A stretch of 64,000 nucleotides of DNA from Escherichia coli (GTDB taxonomy: Bacteria; Pseudomonadota; Gammaproteobacteria; Enterobacterales; Enterobacteriaceae): NCBI RefSeq assembly GCF_024223415.1, contig NZ_CP100500.1; one strand, given 5' to 3'. Made by a program: the position numbers and the translations under genes. Below the pieces are notes generated by a model, which was given only the letters and a program-made list of their open reading frames with translations, was not told the origin of the DNA and did not search any database. Positions within the stretch are counted from its first letter, which is position 1. Each line of letters begins with the position of its first letter. Below are positions 44,558 to 54,663 of the stretch, one piece after another.

Positions 44558-44806
44558 ATGCGTATTGAAATCTGTATCGCTAAAGAAAAATTCAGCAAAA
44601 TGCCAAAAGGCTCTGTACCTGCTCTACAACAGGAAATGTCTCGCCGTATCAGAAAACAATACGACGATGTGGAGGTTATAGTAAAATCCGCCAGTAATGA
44701 CGGACTGACCATTTTAAGAGCCGTAGATAAAGAAAACGCTCAGAAGTTCATACAGGAAACGCTGCAGGAAGTCTGGGAAACTGCTGATGACTGGTTTTTT
44801 CACTAA
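44558..44806 (+). CDS. DinI-family DNA-damage-inducible protein (prophage-encoded)
   Basis: 82-aa [22 protein letters not shown]...[16 protein letters not shown], resembling DinI incl. C-terminal acidic WExADDWF motif; good SD (AGAGGG). Confidence 0.8.
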
Positions 44807-44910: not shown

Positions 44911-44982
44911 TAATTGTTTACAGAAATATTGCCGAATAAAAATATAAACCATAGTCTTAAAAAAATAATAATTCCACTATAG

Positions 44983-45078
44983 CTATCCCAGAACAACCAG
45001 TACAAATAATAAAAGACATATCACAGCAACACTCCACACTGACAGCGCAAAAATAAATGCCGCCTTTGTTATCTTCAT
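44983..45078 (-). CDS. hypothetical 31-aa hydrophobic peptide (speculative)
   Basis: Manual translation: MKITKAAFIFALSVWSVAVICLLLFVLVVLG; single predicted TM helix; weak SD; lies in an AT-rich spacer. Confidence 0.2.
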   Translation of the reverse strand: MKITKAAFIFALSVWSVAVICLLLFVLVVLG

Positions 45079-45189
45079 ATACAAGCAACCTGTCCTGATA
45101 ATCACCAACTCATGTTTTATTCTTAACCATTCGTCACAAATACAACAAAAAATAACAGCAGCAGCACCGATATCACAATATAAGATACA

Positions 45190-45645
45190 TTATTCAACAC
45201 CTGAATCCCCCGCAGCTTCTCTCCCCTTTATAAAACGCCCCTTCCGGAATCCAGACCGCTGCAGTGCACGACGAAGATGACCGTATACCGTCTTGTCATT
45301 CTGCCCCGTCTCTTCTGTAATCTCCGCAATACTTAAACCTCTGTAATACCGGTTCAGTACCGCTCTGCGCTCTTCCAGCGTCAACACACCTCCGGCCGCT
45401 CTCAGATTCAGCATCGACTTATTCAGAATACAGCAGGCCTCTCCGGTAAAAAGAATACGAACAATATCTGTATACTCATCATCACAGAATACAAAATAAT
45501 ATCTGAATGACCTGCCTGACTGCACCCTTCTTCTGTCTGATATGGCATCTTCTATATATCTGATTCGACTGCTTACGGTTCCAAATATCTCTCGCAGGGC
45601 TTTTTCAAAATAAATATCTCTCGTCGCCAGGATTATATCCAGCAT
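45190..45645 (-). CDS. LuxR/GerE-type HTH transcriptional regulator (prophage accessory)
   Basis: 151-aa ORF; C-terminal LTLEERRAVLNRYYRGLSIAEITEETGQNDKTVYGHLRRALQR fits the GerE/LuxR HTH pattern; Arg codons almost all AGA/AGG/CGA and frequent ATA Ile. Confidence 0.6.
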   Translation of the reverse strand: MLDIILATRDIYFEKALREIFGTVSSRIRYIEDAISDRRRVQSGRSFRYYFVFCDDEYTDIVRILFTGEACCILNKSMLNLRAAGGVLTLEERRAVLNRYYRGLSIAEITEETGQNDKTVYGHLRRALQRSGFRKGRFIKGREAAGDSGVE

Positions 45646-45661
45646 CTCTGTACCTCATTAT

Positions 45662-45682
45662 ATCCCGGGGGACTCCCCCGGG
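45662..45682. other. GC-rich hairpin between eib-like gene and regulator
   Basis: TCCCGGGGG-ACT-CCCCCGGGA, 9-bp perfect stem, no U-tract. Confidence 0.5.
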
Positions 45683-45705
45683 ACAGATATCTAAATCCTG
45701 ACCTG

Positions 45706-46833
45706 TCAGAACTCAAAATTCACACCAGCATTCCACGATGCGGATGACCCACCTGCAGCAACTGCAACTTTTCCTGCCACATTCTCTGTGAAACGGTAGC
45801 CCACGCCCACCGCAATGGCCTGCTCATCACGGTAACCACCAACGGCTGCTGTCGCGTTAAATTTTCCAACACTGTATGGCTGGAAAAGACCGGCCAGTGC
45901 CGCGCTCTGGGCTGCACTCTCCCTTAACTCCTTCCGGTTCTCTTTAATCTGCTCCTGCATATTATTCATTCTCTCTGTCGCCATCTTCTGCCAGGCTTCC
46001 GTCAAATCCAGACGATGACTGTTATTCCTTATCGCTGCTGTATTTGAGGCTATTGCTGCATCCGTCTGCGCCCTGTTCTTCACAAGCACATCGCTGAGAT
46101 GTTCTGCCTGGCTTTTCACCTCGTTACGGACAGTACGCACACTGCTGTCTGTATATGTACGCGTCTCGTCCAGAACATCCGACTTCACCGCATCCGTGTA
46201 TTCCTGCGCAGAAGCCCTGGCAGCTGTAATATTACCGTTAAGTCTGTTTTCTGCCGATTCCACTCGACTCTTAGCATCAGCAACAGCATCACGGTAGACA
46301 GCTCCTATCTCACCGCGCAGGGCATCCCCCGACTCCCGTACAGCATCTGCAATGGCGTTGTCCATCTGTCCTTTTGTGGCCGCATCACTATCCTTAACAC
46401 CATCTGAAACATTTATAATCCGGCGGGTTTCCGGTGCACCATCAACTGAAAATCCATATCCTGAAGGACCGGCCCCTACAGAAAGTACATTGCTTTCTCC
46501 ATTCACCTGAGAGCCATACCCCAGAGCGACACTGTTGTCTGCATTAAAAACAGCTGTATTATTTCCCACAGCCATGGATTTATCCGCATCCCAAATTATT
46601 GCATCGGAACCAACAGCAAAGTTTTTTCCAGTAACACTACCATCACTGTTAAAATTTCCATTTCTGTCAACCACAGTTGCACTTTCAAGTGAATGAGTGC
46701 CATTATCAATCCAGATAATACCCGTCGATGACTCAGTAAGTGTTTTATGAGCCAAAGCCTGAGATGAGAGCAGCAGGGCCACACTCACTGCCAGCGCGCT
46801 TTTCTTTAAAAAAGCATCACGTCTTTTAAGCAT
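45706..46833 (-). CDS. trimeric autotransporter adhesin, Eib-like (E. coli immunoglobulin-binding protein family) candidate
   Basis: 375-aa product from MLKRRDAFLKKSALAVSVALLLSSQALA (signal peptide; SD AGGAG 9 nt upstream); coiled-coil stalk; C-terminal YadA-like anchor ...WNAGVNFEF; Eib genes are known prophage cargo; the ORF track extends 18 codons upstream. Confidence 0.7.
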   Translation of the reverse strand: MLKRRDAFLKKSALAVSVALLLSSQALAHKTLTESSTGIIWIDNGTHSLESATVVDRNGNFNSDGSVTGKNFAVGSDAIIWDADKSMAVGNNTAVFNADNSVALGYGSQVNGESNVLSVGAGPSGYGFSVDGAPETRRIINVSDGVKDSDAATKGQMDNAIADAVRESGDALRGEIGAVYRDAVADAKSRVESAENRLNGNITAARASAQEYTDAVKSDVLDETRTYTDSSVRTVRNEVKSQAEHLSDVLVKNRAQTDAAIASNTAAIRNNSHRLDLTEAWQKMATERMNNMQEQIKENRKELRESAAQSAALAGLFQPYSVGKFNATAAVGGYRDEQAIAVGVGYRFTENVAGKVAVAAGGSSASWNAGVNFEF

Positions 46834-47181
46834 TCTGTTATTCTCCTGTATTATTACTTCACCAGCCAGAACGGTAGTGCGGAGCAAAAATACAGTGATA
46901 AGAATCCTCTTTTATTAATTTAATAATATCAGGAATATTATTGTGTATAATATGCGCCCTCAATTTAAGCAGCAGAAAAGCAATGACGCGAAAATCATTA
47001 AAATACATAAAGATAAAACATCATAACTATAATTATAATAAGCGCGCTTATTTTAGCATCTGAACATTTAAAGTACTGCTATCACAAAACAATAAAAATC
47101 CTGGGTAATATCTCTGATGATTGAATGAGAAATTCACGATGTCTGGTGAGAATTCTGTTCAAAACGAGGAATGCAGACGTA

Positions 47182-47268
47182 CACGTGGCACGCACCACGT
47201 GATCCGTAGAAAAGCCTCTTGTTACGAATTTCGTAAACCGCACGTCTGTCTGGTCGTGCGGATTTTTT
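47182..47268 (+). other. three consecutive hairpins ending in an intrinsic terminator (candidate structured RNA 3' end)
   Basis: CACGTGG-cacgca-CCACGTG (47182-47201); perfect 15-bp palindrome TTACGAATTTCGTAA (47222-47236); CCGCACG-tctgtctggt-CGTGCGG + ATTTTTT (47238-47268). Confidence 0.45.
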
Positions 47269-47454
47269 ATCCGTCAACTTCACATGAAACCCGCCAGAGC
47301 ACTGTTTCCGGATTCAGACATCAGGCATATTATCATCCACAATATCGTGAACAAGATCACCTTTTTGCAATTCCTTTATTGATCGAAAGCAGTTAATCAC
47401 TGAAATTAATTACCGGAGTGAAAGCATTACTGCATAATAAATATAGATCCTTGC

Positions 47455-47488
47455 CCCCCTCTGACAGAATTTTCAGAGGGGTTTTTTT
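47455..47488 (+). terminator. strong plus-strand intrinsic terminator
   Basis: CCCCCTCTGA-cagaattt-TCAGAGGGGG followed by T7; plus-strand only. Confidence 0.65.
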
Positions 47489-47496
47489 TATCAGTT

Positions 47497-48072
47497 TCAC
47501 CATCCAACCCTGTACGCCAGAATGGTTTCACTGTCACTCAGTTCTGCTATTGCCTTTTTCATCTCCCTTTGCCTTATATGTATTTCAAGGCCTTTCCTGA
47601 ACATCGCTTTACCAGCAGCATCACTCAGGGATATCAGTTCATCTGCCGTCATCGGTACATCATTATTCTCTGCGTCCGTCCAGAAAAATCCTTCCGGCAA
47701 CACTCCGCCTCTGGCCGCTGATGCCGACATTCCAAGACGTGTCATGGCTTCCTTTCCATAATCCCATTTCCGTCCTCTGTGCTCAAAAACATACCCTGAC
47801 GCCTCCATCGCATCACGCCAGGCATTTATCTCCGCGTTTTTCATCCTGCGTGCTTCTTCCACAGCCATATCATCATTTGCCCGGTACTCACCTACCGGCC
47901 CTGCATCACCTCTTATGCAGGCTTCAAATATTTCACGACCGTAAGACTCAGGATCATCCGCACTTGCTGTAAATACACATTCTGTTTCCGCGTCTGAAAA
48001 CTTCACTATACAGTTTATGGTCGTATGACCCCTGTCAGCCCACACTGGTGACGTGATTTTATCGACCTTCAT
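47497..48072 (-). CDS. hypothetical phage protein at the tail-fibre-assembly (tfa) position
   Basis: 191-aa ORF immediately downstream of the stf-like gene with SD GGGGAGAAA; does not resemble lambda Tfa as far as I can recall; assignment is positional. Confidence 0.4.
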   Translation of the reverse strand: MKVDKITSPVWADRGHTTINCIVKFSDAETECVFTASADDPESYGREIFEACIRGDAGPVGEYRANDDMAVEEARRMKNAEINAWRDAMEASGYVFEHRGRKWDYGKEAMTRLGMSASAARGGVLPEGFFWTDAENNDVPMTADELISLSDAAGKAMFRKGLEIHIRQREMKKAIAELSDSETILAYRVGW

Positions 48073-48086
48073 TCATTTCTCCCCTG

Positions 48087-49892
48087 TCACCGTATTCTCT
48101 GAAACAGGCCCCAAATCGTCCCAATGATATTATTCACTGTCATGTTAGTTGTGCATAACATCCATGTACCAAGCATAGGATTGCCAAATAAAAAGCGGAT
48201 ATCTGTAAGTTTATCCGATGACGACGACACAATAACGGCCTGTCTGATACGATACCCGGGTATTTCACGGGTATTTGTTACCTCATGATTTCGTTCTATG
48301 ATCCCCAGAACATAAGACCCCACGGAATAAACACTTCCGACGCTCGCTGGCTGCCCCGGCTGTCCCTGTGGTCCTGCCGGGCCGCGTTCACCTGTATACC
48401 CTCTTGGCCCCTGAGGACCTGCCGGGCCGCGTTCACCTGTATCCCCCTTTAGTCCCTGTGGACCTGCCGGACCGCGTTCACCTGTATCGCCCTTTGGTCC
48501 CTGTGGACCACGCTCCCCCTGGGCTCCCAGCTCTTTCCATTCAGACCAGGGGCCATTACCGGTAAAATTACCAGTAACAGTTCTTACGAACTTTCGTGGT
48601 GGGTTCCAGGTTGTATATTCATGCTGGCAATATCCCCATGCACCAACTCTTACCTGAAGATAACCCGCTCTCTGAATCGGATAATTATTTTCTCGTGTAG
48701 CCCCACTGTCTGATGGCTGATAATAATCACCCTGATCGGTCACTCGTCCCAGTCGGTTCAGATCACCATTCAGCAGTTGTCCACGGGCTGACTCTCCTCT
48801 TGGTCCCTGAGGACCTGCCGGACCGCGTGCTCCTGTTTCACCTTTTGCTCCCTGTGGACCTGTCGGACCGCGTTCACCTGTTTCACCTTTTGGTCCCTGT
48901 GGTCCTGCCGGGCCGCGTTCACCTGTTTCACCCTTTGCTCCCTGTGGACCTTCCGGGCCACGTTCACCTGTATCCCCCTTTGGTCCCTGAGGACCTGCCG
49001 GGCCACGTTCACCTGTATCGCCCTTTGATCCCTGTGGACCTGCCGGGCCGCGTTCACCTGTATCCCCCTTTGGTCCCTGTGGACCTCCCGGATCTCCTTT
49101 ATCCCCCTTAGGGCCTTTTTCTCCTCGCTCACCCTTTTCTCCCTTCAGACCCTGAGGGCCTTCCGGACCACGTGCACCTGTTTCGCCCTTTGCTCCCTGT
49201 GGACCTGCCGGGCCGCGTTCACCTGTTTCGCCCTTTGCTCCCTGTGGACCTGCCGGGCCGCGTGCACCTGTTTCACCCTTTGGTCCCTGTGGACCTGCCG
49301 GGCCGCGTTCACCTGTATCGCCCTTTAGTCCCTGTGGACCTGCCGGACCGCGTTCACCTGTTTCACCTTTTGGTCCCTGTGGTCCTGCCGGGCCACGTGC
49401 TCCTGTTTCACCTTTTGGCCCCTGTGGCCCGGTAATGCCTCTTTCACCACGAGCGCCGGTATCCCCTTTCTCTCCTCGTGGTCCCCGGGCAGATGCTGCT
49501 CGTTTCCGGGCTTCCTCCGCCTCAGATGCCGCGGACTCTGCTCTGTGCAGTATGGACTGCACCACAGCCTCCAGCTCTGACAACGCCTTCGGATAATAAG
49601 GAGCATCTTCCAGCTCCATCAGAAATTTATTCAGTGTTCCCGGTGAAGAATCCTCCCTGACCACGATATCTCCCACATACGAAGGACGGTAACCTTCTGT
49701 ATTGAGTGTCACCCTGTATATTCCTGGCTCCACATCCATACTGTAACTCCCCGTCTCTTCCGGCATGCCATAAGCCACTGTCGTGGCGATGACTGTCTCG
49801 CTGGTTCTCTTCGCTTTCAGCTCAATAATGCATCCCGGTACCGGTTTTCCGGTTCCGTCCCTCAGCACGCCTGAAATTTTTACAGCCGCCAT
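48087..49892 (-). CDS. stf: side tail fibre protein (Stf-like) with collagen-like G-X-Y repeats
   Basis: 601-aa ORF; N-terminus [18 protein letters not shown]... resembles lambda Stf N-domain; two long blocks of GPxGxKGxTGxRG repeats; distinct C-terminal domain. Confidence 0.8.
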
Positions 49893-50231: not shown

Positions 50232-50894
50232 TCAGTACGCATCATAAATTTCTGCATTTATGTAATAACAGAGGTTATTAACAACACCTGAATTATCATT
50301 GGGCGCCGCTACGTTATCTTCAGCAAAAGTTGACTGACGCCATAACTGTGAGTTTCTGGCATTAAAACTGGCGGTATACCAGTAATAACTCTCCCCTTCC
50401 TGAACTGTCGTCCACTGGGTACACCCCGGCATTACGGCCACATCATGTCCCACACTGATCGGTACATCCTTTTCCCATATTCGCGTCATTTTTACTTCCA
50501 GTGGCAGCATTTCCGTGTTCCAGACCACCCTGCCATGACTGTCGCACAACTGTATTCCCCATTGCGGCCATACATTCACCATGTTGGCAAAAACATAAAC
50601 AACATATGTGCTGTCCTGTTCCATGCCCGGCTCCTGCCCTGTACCAGCGCTGAAAATGTCATACTGCCAGGTACCGTTAAGCTGAACCATTTCACCATGG
50701 AAGGACTGATTACCGCTTATCTGTTTAATAAAAATCACGCAACGATAATTCGTCGGCACCCCAGTGTCGATAAACTGCATCACCGCATCACGCGCACTCA
50801 GTGTGAAATGAAAACGGCGCACAAGGTTCAGTGGCGGCGCAACAGGTGATATCCATTCTCTCCCCCGCTCATCAGTTAATTTAAGTGCAAACAT
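50232..50894 (-). CDS. hypothetical tail-associated protein
   Basis: 220-aa ORF; start ATG overlaps stop of upstream 86-aa ORF (ATGA). Confidence 0.55.
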   Translation of the reverse strand: MFALKLTDERGREWISPVAPPLNLVRRFHFTLSARDAVMQFIDTGVPTNYRCVIFIKQISGNQSFHGEMVQLNGTWQYDIFSAGTGQEPGMEQDSTYVVYVFANMVNVWPQWGIQLCDSHGRVVWNTEMLPLEVKMTRIWEKDVPISVGHDVAVMPGCTQWTTVQEGESYYWYTASFNARNSQLWRQSTFAEDNVAAPNDNSGVVNNLCYYINAEIYDAY

Positions 50895-51154
50895 CAGATC
50901 CCCCTTATCATGACCAGCACGGGTCTTAACCAGCTTGTGTTGGCATAGTGCACTGTCCAGCCGGATACACTGGCACTGGTATGACTTCCCTGACCGTTAA
51001 TCAGAATGGCCGGTGAACAGACTTCCAGACGCCAGCCCTGCAAAGGAGTATAAGAACGCTGCCCCGTCCCTTCAGTGATCACATCCAGCACCCCTGTTGG
51101 GTTTATTTCATGTGTCACAAGGCGCCCTTTGCGCCATACCCGGACTCCGAACAT
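50894..51154 (-). CDS. hypothetical small protein coupled to J
   Basis: 86-aa ORF; start overlaps J stop (TAATG). Confidence 0.5.
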   Translation of the reverse strand: MFGVRVWRKGRLVTHEINPTGVLDVITEGTGQRSYTPLQGWRLEVCSPAILINGQGSHTSASVSGWTVHYANTSWLRPVLVMIRGI

Positions 51155-54100
51155 TACAGTCTCCCCAGTCGTACTCTTAACACATTGTTATCGTCATATA
51201 CGTCGATTCGCTCGCCATTGAAAAACAGGCGGCCTGCGCCGGGCCTTCCTGAGTTAATTTCAAGGCTGCCGTTTCTTGATAAACGCCACCCCGGACTACC
51301 GGAATGAAAATTATCTGACCGGATATCTCCCGTCACTCTGGCAAAATCCACGGTCAGTTTTTTCATGAAAACATCATTCATGAACAGCTGATCACCCTGA
51401 GCCACAAACAAAGGTGTTGTATTGCCATTTTCCGGGTTAATCATCGCAATACGATCTGCCTGCATCAGGATCTGACTCTGAATTCCGTCAGACGTATTTT
51501 CGATTCCGGCACCAATACCTGCAATATAGAGACGTCCATCCCGTGTCTGCTGCAGCTTCACAGCCCACATGCTGTTCAGGTTCCGGCGCGTGTCCTCCTG
51601 AACTTTCTGTATCTGCTCAATGCTGGCATTCCAGGATCCCAGTTTTTTATCCGTGCTCTGTGTGATCTGACTTCCCTTATCATCAACATACTGTCTGATC
51701 TGCGCTATCTGTCGGCTGTTCTCCTCCGTGCTCCTGCTTACTGTCTGCCGGATTTCGCTTCCCATCCTGTCAACTTTTCTGTCAACTTCCGCAATGGCCA
51801 TTGACTGTTCAGCGCTCTTTTTCGCCACAACAGTACTTATTTGCGCACTTTTATCATCAACATACTGCCTGACCTGCGCTATCTGTCGGCTGTTCTCCTC
51901 CGTGCTCCTGCTCACTGTCTGCCGGATTTCACTGCTCACGCTGTCAACTTTCCTGTCGACTTTCGCAATGGCCAGCGACTGTTCACCGCTCTTTTTCGCC
52001 ACCAGTTCCGTTATGCTGTTTTCAGACGCCGTGATTTTTTTCGTCACCTCTGCGATATCACGCTCCGCACGCTGCCTCACATCTTTCTCCAGCTGCGTCA
52101 TTTCGCGGTTAATCGCATTCTCCAGTTGCTCAACTTCAGTGCGCCGTGCAGAGGCATCAATGCGTTCATTGATCTCCCGTCCCAGATGCGTTTTATTTAT
52201 CGCCCCCCTGAAAAAATTAAGGTAACCGGCAGGATCATTACTCGCCCGACCGACTGCCTCCACGAATGCCGATTTACCGACAGTGTTAACACTGCGGATA
52301 TAAAAGTAATAATCATGGCCAGGTTTAATATTCTGGCCGGAGACAAGCCACTGACTTCCGGTACCAAGATAACGGGCTGTGGTTTCAACCTGCCTGATAT
52401 CGGTAATCCGCGTTTCCGAGAACCAGAACTCAAACTGTACCGTCGGATCGTAAACCGCAAGATGCGGCGTGGCGGTTATCTGAAAATAGCCCGGCGTCAG
52501 CTCAATCCGCGACGGCGCTGCCGGTGCGGCAATCCGGAACGATACCGACGCCGGGTCTCCCTGCTGCCCCCGGGCATTTACTGCCCGGACTGTCAGCCTG
52601 TAGTTCCCCGGCGCCAGCTGCCTGAAGCGGTATGTGGTTTCCGTCGTCCGGGCCGTGCTGACCAGCCGCTCACTGCCATCATCCGCGGCCACGGTCAGGC
52701 GAAGCAGGAAGCTCACGCCCTTCACCACCTTCGGCGTGTCCCAGCGCGCCAGCACCTGATATTCCCCGCTGTCTGCGGTGACTTCTGCGGTCAGGTGCTG
52801 CACCGCTGGCGGCGTGACACCATTCACCGTTCCGCTCTGGTCGCCGTCAAAGTGCGCCCCGTTATCCACGATGGCCTCTTTTTCCGGTACATGCTGCACG
52901 GCAGTGATGGCATACGTGCCGTCGTCGTTCTCACGGATACTCACGCAGCGGAACAGGCGCTGGCGCAGCGTCGGCAGCTTCAGCCCCCACACGCTGTACT
53001 CGGCAACGCCGTCAGGAACCCGGCTCACTTTTACCTTCACGCCGTCGGTGACGGACTGAACCTCCACGCTGACCGGATTGCCACTTCCGTCAACCAGACT
53101 TATCAGCGTGGTACCGGAGGATGGCAGCGTGATTTCACGGTCGAGCGTCAGCGTCCGGGTCTGGCTGTTCACCGCCAGCACACGACCACCGGTGCTGATA
53201 CCGGCATAGTCATCATCACAGATTTCAATGACATCGCCCGGTACATGGCGAAGCCCTTCAGCACCCACGCTGAAATCCACGGTCTGCGTCTCCAGCAGTT
53301 CTGTTTTAATCAGCCACAGCCCGGCGCGGTGTGCCTGCCCCCGGCTGGTACAGCCAAAGGCATCCATCTTCGTGACGTTACGACCGTAACGGGCAATGGC
53401 CTGCGTGTCCTCCACAAGCTCTGTCGCCGTCTCCTGGCCGTTATCCGGGTCACTCCAGTTCACCTCAACGGCATTATGGCGGTCCTTCAGGGCGCTGAAG
53501 CTGTAGCGGAACGGCGCGCCATCATCCGGCATCACCACATTACTGCGGTTATAGGTCCACACCTTATCCGACGGTCGGTCCTGCACGAACGTCAGCGTCT
53601 GCCCGTTCCATACCGGCATACAGCGCATCGCCGAGCAGAAATCACTGAGCACATCCCACGCCTTACGCTGCCTGGTCAGCCAGGCATTACAGGTGATGCG
53701 CGGCTCCGTGCCACCAGAGCCGTCCGGCACCGACTGGTCGCAGTACTGGCCGATGACATACAGCGCCCATTTGTCCACATCCGCTGCGCCAACACGTTTC
53801 CCCATGCCGTAGCGCGGGTGGGTCAGCATATCCCACAGACACCAGGCCGGGTTATCGCTGTATGCCGGTTTAAACGTTCCGTCCCAGATACCGCTGTATT
53901 GCCGCGTCTGCGGGTTATAGTTCGACGGCACCTGCAGAATGCGCCCGCGAAGATGATAATTACGGCTCACCTGCTGGCTGCCGAACTGCTCCGAATCCAC
54001 CTGCACACCGACCAGTGCCGTGTTCGGGTAGCACTGTTTCACATCGATGATTTCGGTGTATGACGACCAGAGCGTTTTGTTCTGCAGCTGGTCTGTGGTG

Positions 54101-54663
54101 CTGTCCGGCGTCATCCTGCGCATCCGGATACTGAACGGGCGCGGCGGCAGGTTACCCACCACCACCGGGGCCAGATACTGCGAGGTGGTTTTGCCCTTAA
54201 TGGTGATGTCTTTTTCCGTTAACCAGCGACCGTTACGCTGTATCTGAACCAGCAGGCGGACTTCCGACGGATTCCGGTCCCCCTTTGAGGTGGTTTCCAC
54301 CAGTGCCTGCACACCGAAGGTCAGGCGCAGACGGTCGATGTTTGCCGACGTGATGGTCCGGGTAATCGGCGTGTCGTACTTCACTTCCGTACCCAGCACC
54401 GTCTCGGAGCCGGAGGATTCAAATCCCTCCGGCGGCGTCTGCTCCTGCTCACCGGCCCGGAATACCACCGTGACGCCGGATATATTGGTATTCCCCTCAC
54501 TGTCCAGCACCGGCGTACCGTTCAGCAGCACGCTTTTTAATCCATCCACCGGTCCTTGTATCGGCCCTTCGCTGATGACATCGATCACACTCAGCAACTG
54601 CGTGGACTTCAGGTTGTCCTTCGCTTCGCGCGGGGTATGCCCCTTACTGCTGCCTTTACCCAT
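51154..54663 (-). CDS. J: tail tip / host specificity protein J (central fibre), variant C-terminus
   Basis: 1169-aa ORF; N-terminal ~900 aa match lambda gpJ as I recall it ([24 protein letters not shown]...); C-terminal ~270 aa differ and include two 58-aa tandem repeats. Confidence 0.92.
51678..52025. repeat. 174-bp tandem duplication inside J
   Basis: Two adjacent ~174-bp copies (starting 51678 and 51852), ~90% identical, encoding [20 protein letters not shown]... Confidence 0.8.

What the first reader, a model, noticed from the sequence alone, without database searches (positions are those of the whole stretch)
45706..46900. Prophage-borne Eib-like trimeric autotransporter adhesin
The ORF has a Sec signal peptide with a strong SD, a long heptad-repeat stalk and a C-terminal YadA-type membrane anchor ending in GVNFEF. 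Its size (~375-390 aa) and its position at the distal end of a lambdoid prophage next to the tail fibre genes match what is known of the Eib immunoglobulin-binding proteins of E. coli (EibA is about this size). If correct, this prophage gives its host serum resistance / IgG-Fc binding, a lysogenic-conversion trait. Which Eib paralogue it is, and whether it binds Ig at all, cannot be told from sequence here.
Basis: partly seen in the sequence, partly recalled or inferred. Interest (0 to 1): 0.6.

Follow-up and report, generated by a model that had tools for sequence, protein, structure and literature searches.

The report
Prophage adhesin related to Eib
A resident virus in this E. coli genome carries an intact gene for a three-stranded surface adhesin that is a distant cousin of the antibody-binding Eib proteins but lacks two of their hallmark domains, so antibody binding cannot be assumed.

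Summary
Window 45706..46833 (minus strand) encodes an intact 375-aa trimeric autotransporter adhesin (TAA): AGGAGA ribosome site, Sec signal peptide, small YadA-like head, neck, one unbroken 162-residue helical stalk, and a YadA-type anchor ending GVNFEF. It lies at the end of a lambdoid prophage in the order tail fibre, DUF4376 assembly protein, TAA, small HTH protein, DinI, then host hydrolase/aspS.

The Eib reading is only partly right. Eibs are the closest characterised relatives and the gene occupies the eib slot. It is not any named paralogue: 39% identity to EibC/D, and 57% to EibA over the last 118 aa, where reference Eibs share 76-84%. It lacks the Eib N-terminal domain and the saddle (AF2 EibA control shows both). 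It belongs to a widespread, uncharacterised E. coli lineage labelled 'YadA-like' or 'immunoglobulin-binding' by homology alone.

A 2025 preprint shows that a closer Eib relative, ClaB, does not bind IgG Fc. The query does keep the Asp shown essential in EibG (D391), in register with EibE, while ClaB lacks it. The rest of the mapped IgG segment is not conserved.

Most likely it is a lysogenic-conversion adhesin/autoagglutinin. I put IgG binding at about 0.25.

The parts
45706..46833 (-). TAA gene, 375 aa plus stop. The ATG is at 46833. The mechanical ORF list extends it to a TTG at 46887.
   Evidence: RefSeq calls the same 1128-nt CDS in the 99% identical copy.
46842..46847 (-). Shine-Dalgarno AGGAGA, 9 nt upstream of the ATG.
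   Evidence: Read directly from the sequence.
46750..46833 (-). Sec signal peptide, aa 1-28 (MLKRRDAFLKKSALAVSVALLLSSQALA). It is identical in all alleles of this lineage and different from the Eib signal peptide (MSKKFT...).
46459..46638 (-). Small YadA-like left-handed beta-roll head, aa ~66-125, about four 14-residue repeats.
   Evidence: Weak Pfam YadA_head hits at aa 84-113. AF2 gives regular short strands at aa 66-119. Aligns to the last head repeats of EibC/D.
46375..46458 (-). Neck connector, aa ~126-153 (GAPETRRIINVSDGVKDSDAATKGQM).
   Evidence: Pfam PF05662 at aa 138-164, E=5e-4. Invariant DAAT motif with the Eibs.
45889..46374 (-). Uninterrupted coiled-coil stalk, aa 154-315, with no saddle.
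   Evidence: AF2 predicts a single helix at 154-315 with pLDDT ~77-85. The EibA control shows the saddle break.
46045..46068 (-). Heptad Q-T-D258-A-A-I-A-S. It is in register with EibE R-I-D370-Y-A-V-G-S and with EibG-type RIDAAVGS, which carries the IgG-critical Asp.
45709..45888 (-). YadA-type membrane anchor, aa 316-375. It has four beta-strands per protomer and ends GVNFEF.
   Evidence: Pfam PF03895, E=2e-16. 2LME match at 1e-17. AF2 strands at 325-373.
45664..45682 (-). GC-rich hairpin (CCCGGGGGAGTCCCCCGGG) between the TAA stop and the orf151 start. It occupies the same position as the stem-loops annotated after eib genes.
   Evidence: Sequence. Reference annotations. There is no T-run, so the terminator scan did not flag it.
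45190..45645 (-). orf151, a sigma-70 region-4-like HTH protein. It always accompanies the TAA and is a candidate regulator.
   Evidence: Pfam Sigma70_r4_2 at aa 87-130, E=4e-7. It co-occurs with the TAA in every context examined. Identity to Eib-locus ORF-156 is only 21-22%.
46834..47496 (-). AT-rich (36.8% GC) upstream non-coding region with a weak promoter-like site at 47064-47035. It shows no DNA similarity to eib upstream regions.
47497..48072 (-). Tail-fibre assembly protein (DUF4376), the homologue of ORF-191 in the P-Eib prophages.
   Evidence: 56-59% identity to orf-191A/D. phrog_1141 at 5e-62.
48087..49892 (-). Side tail fibre with collagen-like repeats.
44558..44806 (+). DinI-like gene at the prophage end. 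Chromosomal genes (PRK11440 hydrolase, aspS, nudB) follow at lower coordinates.
   Evidence: phrog_189 at 2.5e-27. NCBIfam results.

Best explanation
The gene encodes an outer-membrane trimeric autotransporter adhesin (type Vc secretion). It is carried as a lysogenic-conversion 'moron' at the tail-fibre end of a lambdoid prophage.

Inferred pathway, from established knowledge of YadA and EibD:
1. The Sec signal peptide is cleaved after A-L-A.
2. Three protomers each contribute four C-terminal beta-strands to a 12-stranded barrel.
3. The passengers are exported through the barrel and fold into a lollipop: a small YadA-like beta-roll head, a neck, and a coiled-coil stalk of about 24 nm. The stalk passes from long-period to heptad periodicity without a saddle.

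The protein belongs to a widespread, uncharacterised E. coli lineage that is sister to the Eib/Cla adhesins rather than inside them. Its exposed parts are mosaic and vary in length, while the signal peptide and anchor stay constant.

Its most likely role for the lysogen is adhesion, autoaggregation or biofilm formation, possibly with some complement protection. These are the generic TAA functions. Non-immune IgG-Fc binding is less likely than not.
For: Shown here:
- Domain content and order.
- Intact ORF with SD and signal peptide.
- Prophage-end context.
- Same slot as eib genes, with a homologous orf-191.
- The lineage is common and intact in E. coli: near matches in 407 of 5426 complete genomes and many 95-99% identical clusters.
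- Alleles share an identical signal peptide and an identical last ~135 aa, but have different heads and 1-4 copies of a 33-aa stalk repeat.
- Over the last 114 aa the lineage lies on its own long branch outside the Eib+ClaB cluster. The query is 54-58% identical to Eib/ClaB there, against 75-80% for ClaB versus the Eibs.
- No Eib NTD and no saddle, with the EibA control showing both.
- No match to EibD 2XQH.
- The mapped IgG segment (EibD 384-418, coordinates from my memory of Leo et al. 2011) is only 7/35 identical, mostly at core N/T/I/S positions.

From the literature:
- Eib-related adhesins lacking the NTD exist (Cla and Yal). ClaA and ClaB do not bind IgG Fc but mediate chain-like adherence (bioRxiv 10.64898/2025.12.25.695649).
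- TAA heads mediate autoaggregation and biofilm formation (PMC7568254).
Against: - No functional data exist for this lineage, so adhesion and aggregation are inferred from family membership only.
- The head is unusually small (about 4 repeats), so its ligand cannot be guessed.
- The IgG-critical Asp is conserved in register. Among 34 close representatives that Asp occurs only in Eib-type proteins and in this lineage. This keeps Ig binding alive as a possibility.
- Expression is untested. The upstream region is AT-rich and has only weak promoter-like matches.
- The AF2 models are monomers of moderate confidence (mean pLDDT 63.8; stalk 77-85).
Confidence: 0.62

Rival explanations
1. It is a functional immunoglobulin-binding protein: an Eib in the functional sense. 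It would bind IgG Fc through the membrane-proximal left-handed coiled coil and contribute to serum resistance.
For: - The Eibs are the closest characterised relatives and the gene sits in the eib slot.
- Anchored on the AAQSAAL junction without gaps, the query's QTD258AAIAS aligns with EibE RID370YAVGS and with EibG-type RIDAAVGS.
- The EibG D391A primer confirms that this is the Asp whose loss abolishes Fc binding.
- Asp at this position is found only in Eib-type proteins and this lineage among 34 close representatives. IgG-negative ClaB has Q/R there.
- EibG lacking everything from head to saddle still binds IgG, so the missing NTD and saddle do not by themselves exclude binding.
Against: - Outside D-A-A-x-x-S, the segment is not conserved. 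It is 7/35 identical to EibD 384-418 and about 4/28 to EibE. The preceding TDR is replaced by RAQ, and the conserved positions are mostly core residues.
- Proven binders are 97-100% identical to one another in this segment. EibE is the exception and differs by a heptad deletion.
- There is no significant similarity to EibD fragments 2XQH or 2XZR.
- ClaB is closer to the Eibs (49-52% overall, 75-80% in the C-terminal module) and is IgG-negative.
- The database name 'immunoglobulin-binding protein' alternates with 'YadA-like family protein' for the same clusters, so it is homology-derived.
Confidence: 0.25
2. Its primary benefit is to the phage or in phage-host conflict. A dense surface layer of about 25-30 nm fibres would mask receptors and exclude superinfecting phages. 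Alternatively it promotes clumping that alters phage spread. Host adhesion would be secondary.
For: - It sits in the classic moron position beside the tail-fibre genes and another moron membrane protein (phrog_425 at 50232-50894).
- Its exposed parts are mosaic and vary in length, which is the pattern expected under diversifying pressure.
- Related TAA genes occur on phages that plaque on K-12/C, namely the PhiR12 and PhiR5 series.
Against: - There is no direct evidence, and I know of no precedent for a TAA acting in superinfection exclusion.
- The TAA+orf151 module persists outside prophages, in an aerobactin/sit island and next to a sugar-utilisation cluster. This argues for a host-level benefit.
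Confidence: 0.05
3. It is a silent or decaying passenger gene with no current function in this strain.
For: - The upstream region is AT-rich with only weak promoter-like sites.
- Eib genes are known to be poorly expressed except in static culture (PMC5450701).
- Truncated and IS-disrupted copies exist in other genomes.
Against: - The ORF is intact, with SD, signal peptide and complete anchor.
- Near-identical intact copies are widespread.
- The signal peptide and anchor are perfectly conserved across otherwise divergent alleles, which implies purifying selection on export.
Confidence: 0.08

Closest known systems
Eib immunoglobulin-binding proteins of E. coli (EibA, C, D, E; also F, G, H)
   Same: - Prophage-borne TAAs placed after the orf-191/DUF4376 tail-fibre assembly gene and before a small ORF.
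- Same GVNFEF ending, and 57% identity over the last 118 aa.
- The head-neck region aligns with EibC/D (39% overall).
- The IgG-critical Asp heptad is retained in the EibE/EibG register.
   Different: - Different signal peptide.
- No Eib N-terminal domain and no saddle.
- Much smaller head.
- Different mid-stalk, with no equivalent of the EibD IgA segment.
- The IgG segment is otherwise unconserved.
- Different downstream partner (orf151 versus ORF-156, 21-22% identity), and no orf-60.
- No DNA similarity in the upstream region.
ClaA/ClaB chain-like adhesins (bioRxiv 10.64898/2025.12.25.695649)
   Same: Eib-related TAAs without the Eib NTD. They show that Eib relatives need not bind IgG.
   Different: - The query is not ClaA or ClaB. 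ClaA starts MKNNDRKY and ClaB starts MKINRHGI, against MLKRRDAF for the query.
- Identity to ClaB representative P0138 is 38%.
- Cla proteins have a saddle and an Eib-type anchor, and the query has neither.
- ClaB lacks the critical Asp, which the query has.
'Yal' clades of the same preprint (function unknown)
   Same: The preprint describes them as lollipop TAAs with neither saddle nor NTD. That matches the architecture found here.
   Different: - The preprint says Yal clusters nearer to Saa. The query is nearer to the Eibs (39%) than to Saa (28-29%).
- No Yal sequences or accessions are in the held text, so identity could not be tested.
YadA of Yersinia (prototype TAA)
   Same: Same overall head-neck-stalk-anchor architecture. 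The stalk changes periodicity without a saddle. The anchor matches 2LME at 1e-17.
   Different: - Only 27-28% identity.
- The NCBIfam YadA model scores 83 bits against a cutoff of 750.
- Plasmid-borne versus prophage-borne.
- Much smaller head.
- Ends NFEF rather than N[YI]EW.
Saa autoagglutinating adhesin of LEE-negative STEC
   Same: An E. coli TAA with a lollipop architecture and no saddle.
   Different: 28-29% identity, and plasmid-borne.

Membership tests
Trimeric autotransporter adhesins (type Vc) | N-terminal Sec signal peptide | tested here: met
   MLKRRDAFLKK-SALAVSVALLLSS-QALA|HK, read from the translation. AF2 gives low confidence and a short helix there.
Trimeric autotransporter adhesins (type Vc) | C-terminal YadA-like anchor contributing 4 beta-strands per protomer | tested here: met
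   PF03895 at aa 317-375, E=2e-16. YadA anchor 2LME matched at 1e-17. AF2 predicts four strands at 325-373.
Trimeric autotransporter adhesins (type Vc) | Passenger built of head, neck and coiled-coil stalk | tested here: met
   Pfam head and neck hits. AF2 beta-repeats at 66-119 and helix at 154-315.
Trimeric autotransporter adhesins (type Vc) | Heat-stable trimer displayed on the cell surface | not testable with these tools
   Needs expression, SDS-PAGE and surface labelling.
Eib immunoglobulin-binding proteins | Non-immune binding of IgG Fc (the property that names the family) | not testable with these tools
   Needs a blot with labelled IgG Fc. The database label 'immunoglobulin-binding protein' is homology-derived.
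Eib immunoglobulin-binding proteins | Highly conserved C-terminal module (76-84% identity over the last 165-195 aa among EibA/C/D/E) | tested here: not met
   57% over the last 118 aa, with no alignment to EibA upstream of that. 54-58% over the last 114 aa, on a separate branch of the tree.
Eib immunoglobulin-binding proteins | Saddle minidomain between the two stalk segments (PMC12511318; PMC7247746) | tested here: not met
   The TVGVDSDGKLTRAEG...NDGLVALSGR block is absent. AF2 helix 154-315 is unbroken, while the EibA control shows a three-strand break at 232-252.
Eib immunoglobulin-binding proteins | N-terminal 'Eib region'/NTD (PMC7568254; PMC12511318) | tested here: not met
   Only about 40 residues lie between the signal peptide and the head, with no alignment to the Eib NTD. 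The AF2 EibA control shows an alpha/beta NTD at 30-166 that is absent from the query model.
Eib immunoglobulin-binding proteins | IgG-Fc determinant: Asp of the TDRID[Y/A]AVG heptad (EibG D391) and the surrounding segment | tested here: inconclusive
   Asp258 is in register with EibE D370, and Asp at this position is specific to Eib-type proteins plus this lineage. However, the flanking TDR and most of the segment are not conserved (7/35 identical to EibD 384-418).
Eib immunoglobulin-binding proteins | Prophage cassette: orf-191, eib, orf-156 (then orf-60) | tested here: inconclusive
   The orf-191 homologue is clear (56-59% identity). The downstream ORF is only 21-22% identical (E about 1e-4), and no orf-60 is present.
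Cla chain-like adhesins (ClaA/ClaB) | Sequence identity with claA or claB as defined by the cloning primers | tested here: not met
   The N-termini differ. 38% identity to ClaB representative P0138.
Cla chain-like adhesins (ClaA/ClaB) | Pronounced saddle, no NTD | tested here: not met
   No saddle is present. The absence of an NTD is shared.
Yal (function-unknown adhesin-like clades) | No saddle and no NTD | tested here: met
   Definition.
Yal (function-unknown adhesin-like clades) | Clusters nearer to Saa than to the Eibs; sequence identity with a Yal member | tested here: inconclusive
   The query is nearer to the Eibs (39%) than to Saa (28-29%). No Yal sequences are available in the held text or supplements.
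YadA (NCBIfam NF033478) | Score above the curated cutoff of the YadA model | tested here: not met
   83 bits against a cutoff of 750.

The most novel reading that the evidence does not exclude
This saddle-less, NTD-less lineage might be a natural minimal Ig-binding TAA. It retains the one heptad carrying the Asp essential for Fc binding in EibG, one heptad from where EibD has it and in exactly the EibE register. If it binds IgG Fc, it would define the minimal Fc-binding coiled-coil motif (D-A-A-[IV]-[AG]-S). It would also mean that a common and so far ignored E. coli prophage/island gene, with near matches in about 7% of complete genomes, confers antibody binding.
Probability: 0.2. Interest if true: 0.6.

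Novelty: new member of a known kind. Interest (0 to 1): 0.33.

Why it matters
Genome annotations propagate the name 'immunoglobulin-binding protein' to this lineage without any evidence. This analysis shows that it lies outside the Eib/Cla clade and lacks two Eib hallmark domains, yet keeps the single residue known to be essential for Fc binding. That makes it a cheap and informative test case for what actually determines Fc binding in coiled-coil adhesins.

The lineage is common in E. coli. Many of the closest hits are poultry-associated or human isolates. It moves as a two-gene module between prophage ends and genomic islands. Its true function (adhesion, aggregation or immune evasion) therefore bears on lysogenic conversion and on virulence-gene calling. 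In itself it remains a standard lollipop TAA in a known kind of locus.

Tried and rejected
- **Automatic alignments misled me.** MAFFT placed a 10-residue gap over the IgG-critical motif, and I first read this as loss of the motif. An ungapped, anchor-based heptad register showed that the Asp is retained in the EibE register, so I withdrew that conclusion.
- **Recovering claA from IMG/VR.** A search with the 25-nt primer core found nothing. A ClaA representative was not recognisable among the 150 best representatives. ClaB was found (P0138).
- **Primary Eib papers not held.** Sandt & Hill 2000 and 2001 (PMC97405, PMC98814) are not in the library. The EibD IgA (329-344) and IgG (384-418) coordinates are therefore from my memory of Leo et al. 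2011. Only the Asp position is independently confirmed, through the preprint's D391A primer.
- **Identification as ClaA, ClaB, Saa or YadA.** Rejected on sequence.
- **'EibA paralogue because of similar size'.** Rejected because the architectures differ.
- **Promoter and terminator scan.** It gave no more sites than shuffled sequence, so I make no promoter claim.
- **Literature searches for this lineage.** They returned only annotation-level mentions.
- **Fold search of the AF2 model.** Not run. A monomeric long helix of moderate confidence would give uninformative coiled-coil matches.
Full report
**1. Is the feature there?**

Yes. On the minus strand there is an intact ORF. The ORF listing gives 45706..46887 from a TTG. 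The credible start is the ATG at 46833, which lies 9 nt downstream of AGGAGA (46842-46847). This gives a 375-aa product. RefSeq annotates the same 1128-nt CDS in a 99.1% identical copy.

The translation begins with a textbook Sec signal peptide, MLKRRDAFLKK/SALAVSVALLLSS/QALA|HK, and ends ...SWNAGVNFEF.

- Pfam finds YadA_anchor at aa 317-375 (E=2e-16), the neck/stalk motif at aa 138-164, and weak YadA_head repeats at aa 84-113.
- The only solved structures matched at E<=0.01 are the YadA anchor 2LME (1e-17) and a NadA chimera.
- An AlphaFold2 monomer model built on a 36-sequence alignment has mean pLDDT 63.8, with 77-85 in the stalk. It shows regular short strands at 66-119, a neck, one unbroken helix at 154-315, and four strands at 325-373.
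Hydrophobic periodicity is about 3.67-3.75 over most of the stalk and approaches 3.5 only near the anchor.

**2. Context**

The gene lies at the end of a lambdoid prophage. Running from high to low coordinates on the minus strand, the order is:

- tape measure and tail genes
- tip protein J, 51154-54663 (NF049904)
- a moron membrane protein, 50232-50894 (phrog_425)
- a collagen-like side tail fibre, 48087-49892
- a DUF4376 tail-fibre assembly protein, 47497-48072 (phrog_1141, 5e-62)
- the TAA
- a GC hairpin, 45664-45682
- a 151-aa sigma-70 region-4-like HTH protein, 45190-45645
- a DinI-like gene on the plus strand, 44558-44806 (phrog_189)
- host genes: a PRK11440 hydrolase, aspS and nudB

No tRNA is nearby.

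The reference GenBank records for prophages P-EibA, P-EibC, P-EibD and P-EibE show the same slot: orf-191, stem-loop, eib, stem-loop, orf-156, (orf-60).

- The window's 191-aa protein is 56-59% identical to orf-191A/D.
- The 151-aa protein is only 21-22% identical to ORF-156 (E about 1e-4).
- At the DNA level, only the interior of the assembly gene and the anchor-coding 3' end resemble the eib loci.
- The AT-rich upstream region (36.8% GC), the intergenic region and orf151 do not.

**3. Relationship to Eib**

The Eibs are the closest characterised relatives: 39% identity to EibC/D over aa 82-375, and 36% to EibE. EibA matches only over the last 118 aa, at 57%. Saa (28-29%) and YadA (27-28%) are more distant.

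The query is not one of the Eib paralogues.

- EibA, C, D and E share 76-84% identity over their last 165-195 aa and have the same signal peptide (MSKKFT...).
- The query fails to hit the EibD crystal fragment 2XQH even at E<=10, and hits 2XZR only at E=0.22. EibD itself finds both strongly.
- According to PMC12511318 and PMC7568254, all Eibs share a barrel plus left-handed coiled coil plus saddle module and an N-terminal 'Eib region'.
- The query has neither. The saddle block is missing from the alignments. The stalk helix is unbroken in the model.
- The same method applied to EibA as a positive control reproduces an alpha/beta N-terminal domain (30-166) and a three-strand saddle break (232-252) between helices 167-230 and 253-333.
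- The similar size of EibA (392 aa) is therefore coincidental. EibA has the NTD and saddle but no beta-roll head. The query has a head and neck but no NTD or saddle.

**4. What lineage is it?**

The protein belongs to a large E. coli family. There are 1562 hits at E<=1e-10, and some clusters are seen on hundreds to more than 1000 contigs. Near DNA matches occur in 407 of 5426 complete genomes.

Sources label the same clusters either 'YadA-like family protein' or 'immunoglobulin-binding protein'. These are automated names, not evidence.

Alleles share an identical signal peptide and an identical last ~135 aa, but they differ in the exposed parts:

- Lengths of 386, 419, 452 and 485 aa correspond to 1-4 copies of a 33-aa stalk repeat.
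- A 548-aa allele has a larger head.
- The window's 375-aa allele has its own mid-stalk segment.

In a distance tree of the last ~114 aa, this lineage sits with three representatives (P0126-P0128) on a long branch outside the cluster that holds all Eib-type proteins and ClaB. The query is 54-58% identical to Eib/ClaB there, while ClaB is 75-80% identical to the Eibs.

The TAA+orf151 pair also travels outside lambdoid prophages. The shared block is window 44971-47576, which still carries the last ~80 nt of the assembly gene. It is found in two other contexts:

- an aerobactin/sit island among IS elements
- next to a PTS/transketolase cluster with Mu-like genes

**5. Does it bind immunoglobulin?**

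This cannot be decided by sequence, but the evidence can be laid out.

A December 2025 preprint (bioRxiv 10.64898/2025.12.25.695649) reports the following:

- EibG-like adhesins split into Eib, Cla and 'Yal' groups.
- ClaA and ClaB have a saddle but no NTD. They mediate chain-like adherence but give no IgG-Fc signal.
- Yal proteins have no saddle and no NTD, and their function is unknown.
- EibG D391A abolishes Fc binding.
- An EibG lacking everything from head to saddle still binds.

The supplementary primers show that the query is neither ClaA (MKNNDRKY...) nor ClaB (MKINRHGI...). They also show that D391 is the Asp of GRTDRI-D-AAVGS.

Automatic alignments put a gap over this motif in the query. 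That is an artefact.

- Anchoring all proteins on the AAQSAAL junction without gaps puts the query's Q-T-D258-A-A-I-A-S exactly on EibE's R-I-D370-Y-A-V-G-S. EibE and EibG-type proteins are one heptad shorter here than EibD, A and C.
- Among 34 close representatives with this junction, Asp at that position occurs only in Eib-type proteins and in the query lineage. ClaB (P0138) has Q/R there.

Against binding:

- The rest of the segment that I recall as the mapped IgG site (EibD 384-418) is 7/35 identical. The conserved positions are mostly core N/T/I/S, and the preceding TDR is RAQ.
- ClaB, which is overall much closer to the Eibs, is negative.

I put IgG-Fc binding at about 0.25.

**6. Most likely mechanism**

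Steps marked as inferred rest on established knowledge of YadA, EibD and type Vc secretion.

- Sec export and signal-peptide cleavage (sequence shown).
- Three protomers each insert four strands to form a 12-stranded barrel (anchor shown; trimer inferred).
- The passenger emerges and folds into a small beta-roll head, a neck and a stalk of about 24 nm (162 residues x ~0.15 nm, inferred).
- The function for the lysogen is most probably adhesion, autoaggregation or biofilm formation, possibly with complement evasion. These are the activities documented for Eibs, Cla, Saa and YadA (PMC7568254, PMC12511318, the preprint).
- The constant export ends and variable exposed middle suggest diversifying selection on the surface-exposed part (inference).
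- orf151 is a candidate regulator because it always accompanies the gene (inference only).

**7. Novelty and score**

This is a standard lollipop TAA in a known kind of locus. It belongs to a lineage that is abundant in databases and was probably glimpsed as 'Yal' or 'EibG-like' in a preprint, but has not been characterised.

I rate it a new member of a known kind, with modest interest (0.33). The interesting residue of doubt is the conserved Fc-critical Asp heptad in a protein that lacks the other Eib hallmarks. That makes a simple blot experiment informative either way.

Noticed in passing
window 45889-46374 (stalk); L008 4217-5674; L006 1238-2884; proteins P0029, P0032, P0069, P0095: There is an allelic series in this TAA lineage. 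Lengths of 386, 419, 452 and 485 aa equal 1-4 copies of a 33-aa stalk repeat (GDSLRGEIGGVYRDARAHTDSQVTAVRDELKAE). A 548-aa allele has a larger head. All alleles keep an identical signal peptide and an identical last ~135 aa. The pattern looks like recombinational shuffling of the exposed parts.
   Followed up: partly
window 44971-47576; L001 19591-21402; L010 5947-7612; L007 3002-3814: The TAA+orf151 pair moves as a module. The same block, still carrying the last ~80 nt of the tail-fibre assembly gene, sits in an aerobactin/sit island among IS elements. It also sits next to a PTS/transketolase cluster with Mu-like genes. This suggests that the island copies derive from prophage remnants.
   Followed up: partly
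window 45190-45645 (-): A 151-aa protein with a sigma-70 region-4-like HTH (Pfam E=4e-7) always lies downstream of the TAA, after a GC hairpin. It is a faint, collinear relative (21-22% identity) of the uncharacterised ORF-156 of the Eib prophages. It could be a dedicated regulator.
   Followed up: partly
phage records H25-H27 and H39-H43 (Salmonella phages FSL SP-058/076, UTK0001/2, S5, SP154): Lytic Salmonella phages carry proteins annotated 'tail fibre' or 'agglutinating adhesin' that match the query's stalk (aa 141 or 261 to 350) at 28-38% identity. This hints at exchange of YadA-like coiled-coil modules between virion fibres and bacterial adhesins.
   Followed up: no
window 48087-49892 (-): The side tail-fibre protein (601 aa) contains very long collagen-like G-X-Y repeat tracts ([19 protein letters not shown]...). 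These also create long spurious ORFs on the opposite strand.
   Followed up: no
window 50232-50894 (-): A 220-aa protein matches phrog_425 ('moron, membrane associated protein', E=3e-27). It lies between J and the tail fibre and would be a second candidate lysogenic-conversion gene in the same prophage arm.
   Followed up: no
database names of P0008, P0009, P0019, P0022, P0046, P0062; L007 3002-3814: The same protein clusters are named 'immunoglobulin-binding protein' by some sources and 'YadA-like family protein' by others. A truncated pseudogene is also called 'immunoglobulin-binding protein'. A functional name is being propagated by homology alone.
   Followed up: yes
bioRxiv 10.64898/2025.12.25.695649, compared with L002 and L005: The preprint's 'EibE D378-Y388' numbering does not fit the deposited sequences. 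The adjacent pair is EibD D387-Y388, which equals EibE D370-Y371 and EibG D391-A392. The paper's own D391A primer confirms this.
   Followed up: yes
window 47456-47481: A strong GC hairpin (CCCCTCTGACAGAATTTTCAGAGGGG) lies immediately after the tail-fibre assembly gene. It is flanked by an A-run on one side and a T-run on the other. It looks like a bidirectional terminator that insulates the TAA module from late tail-gene transcription.
   Followed up: no
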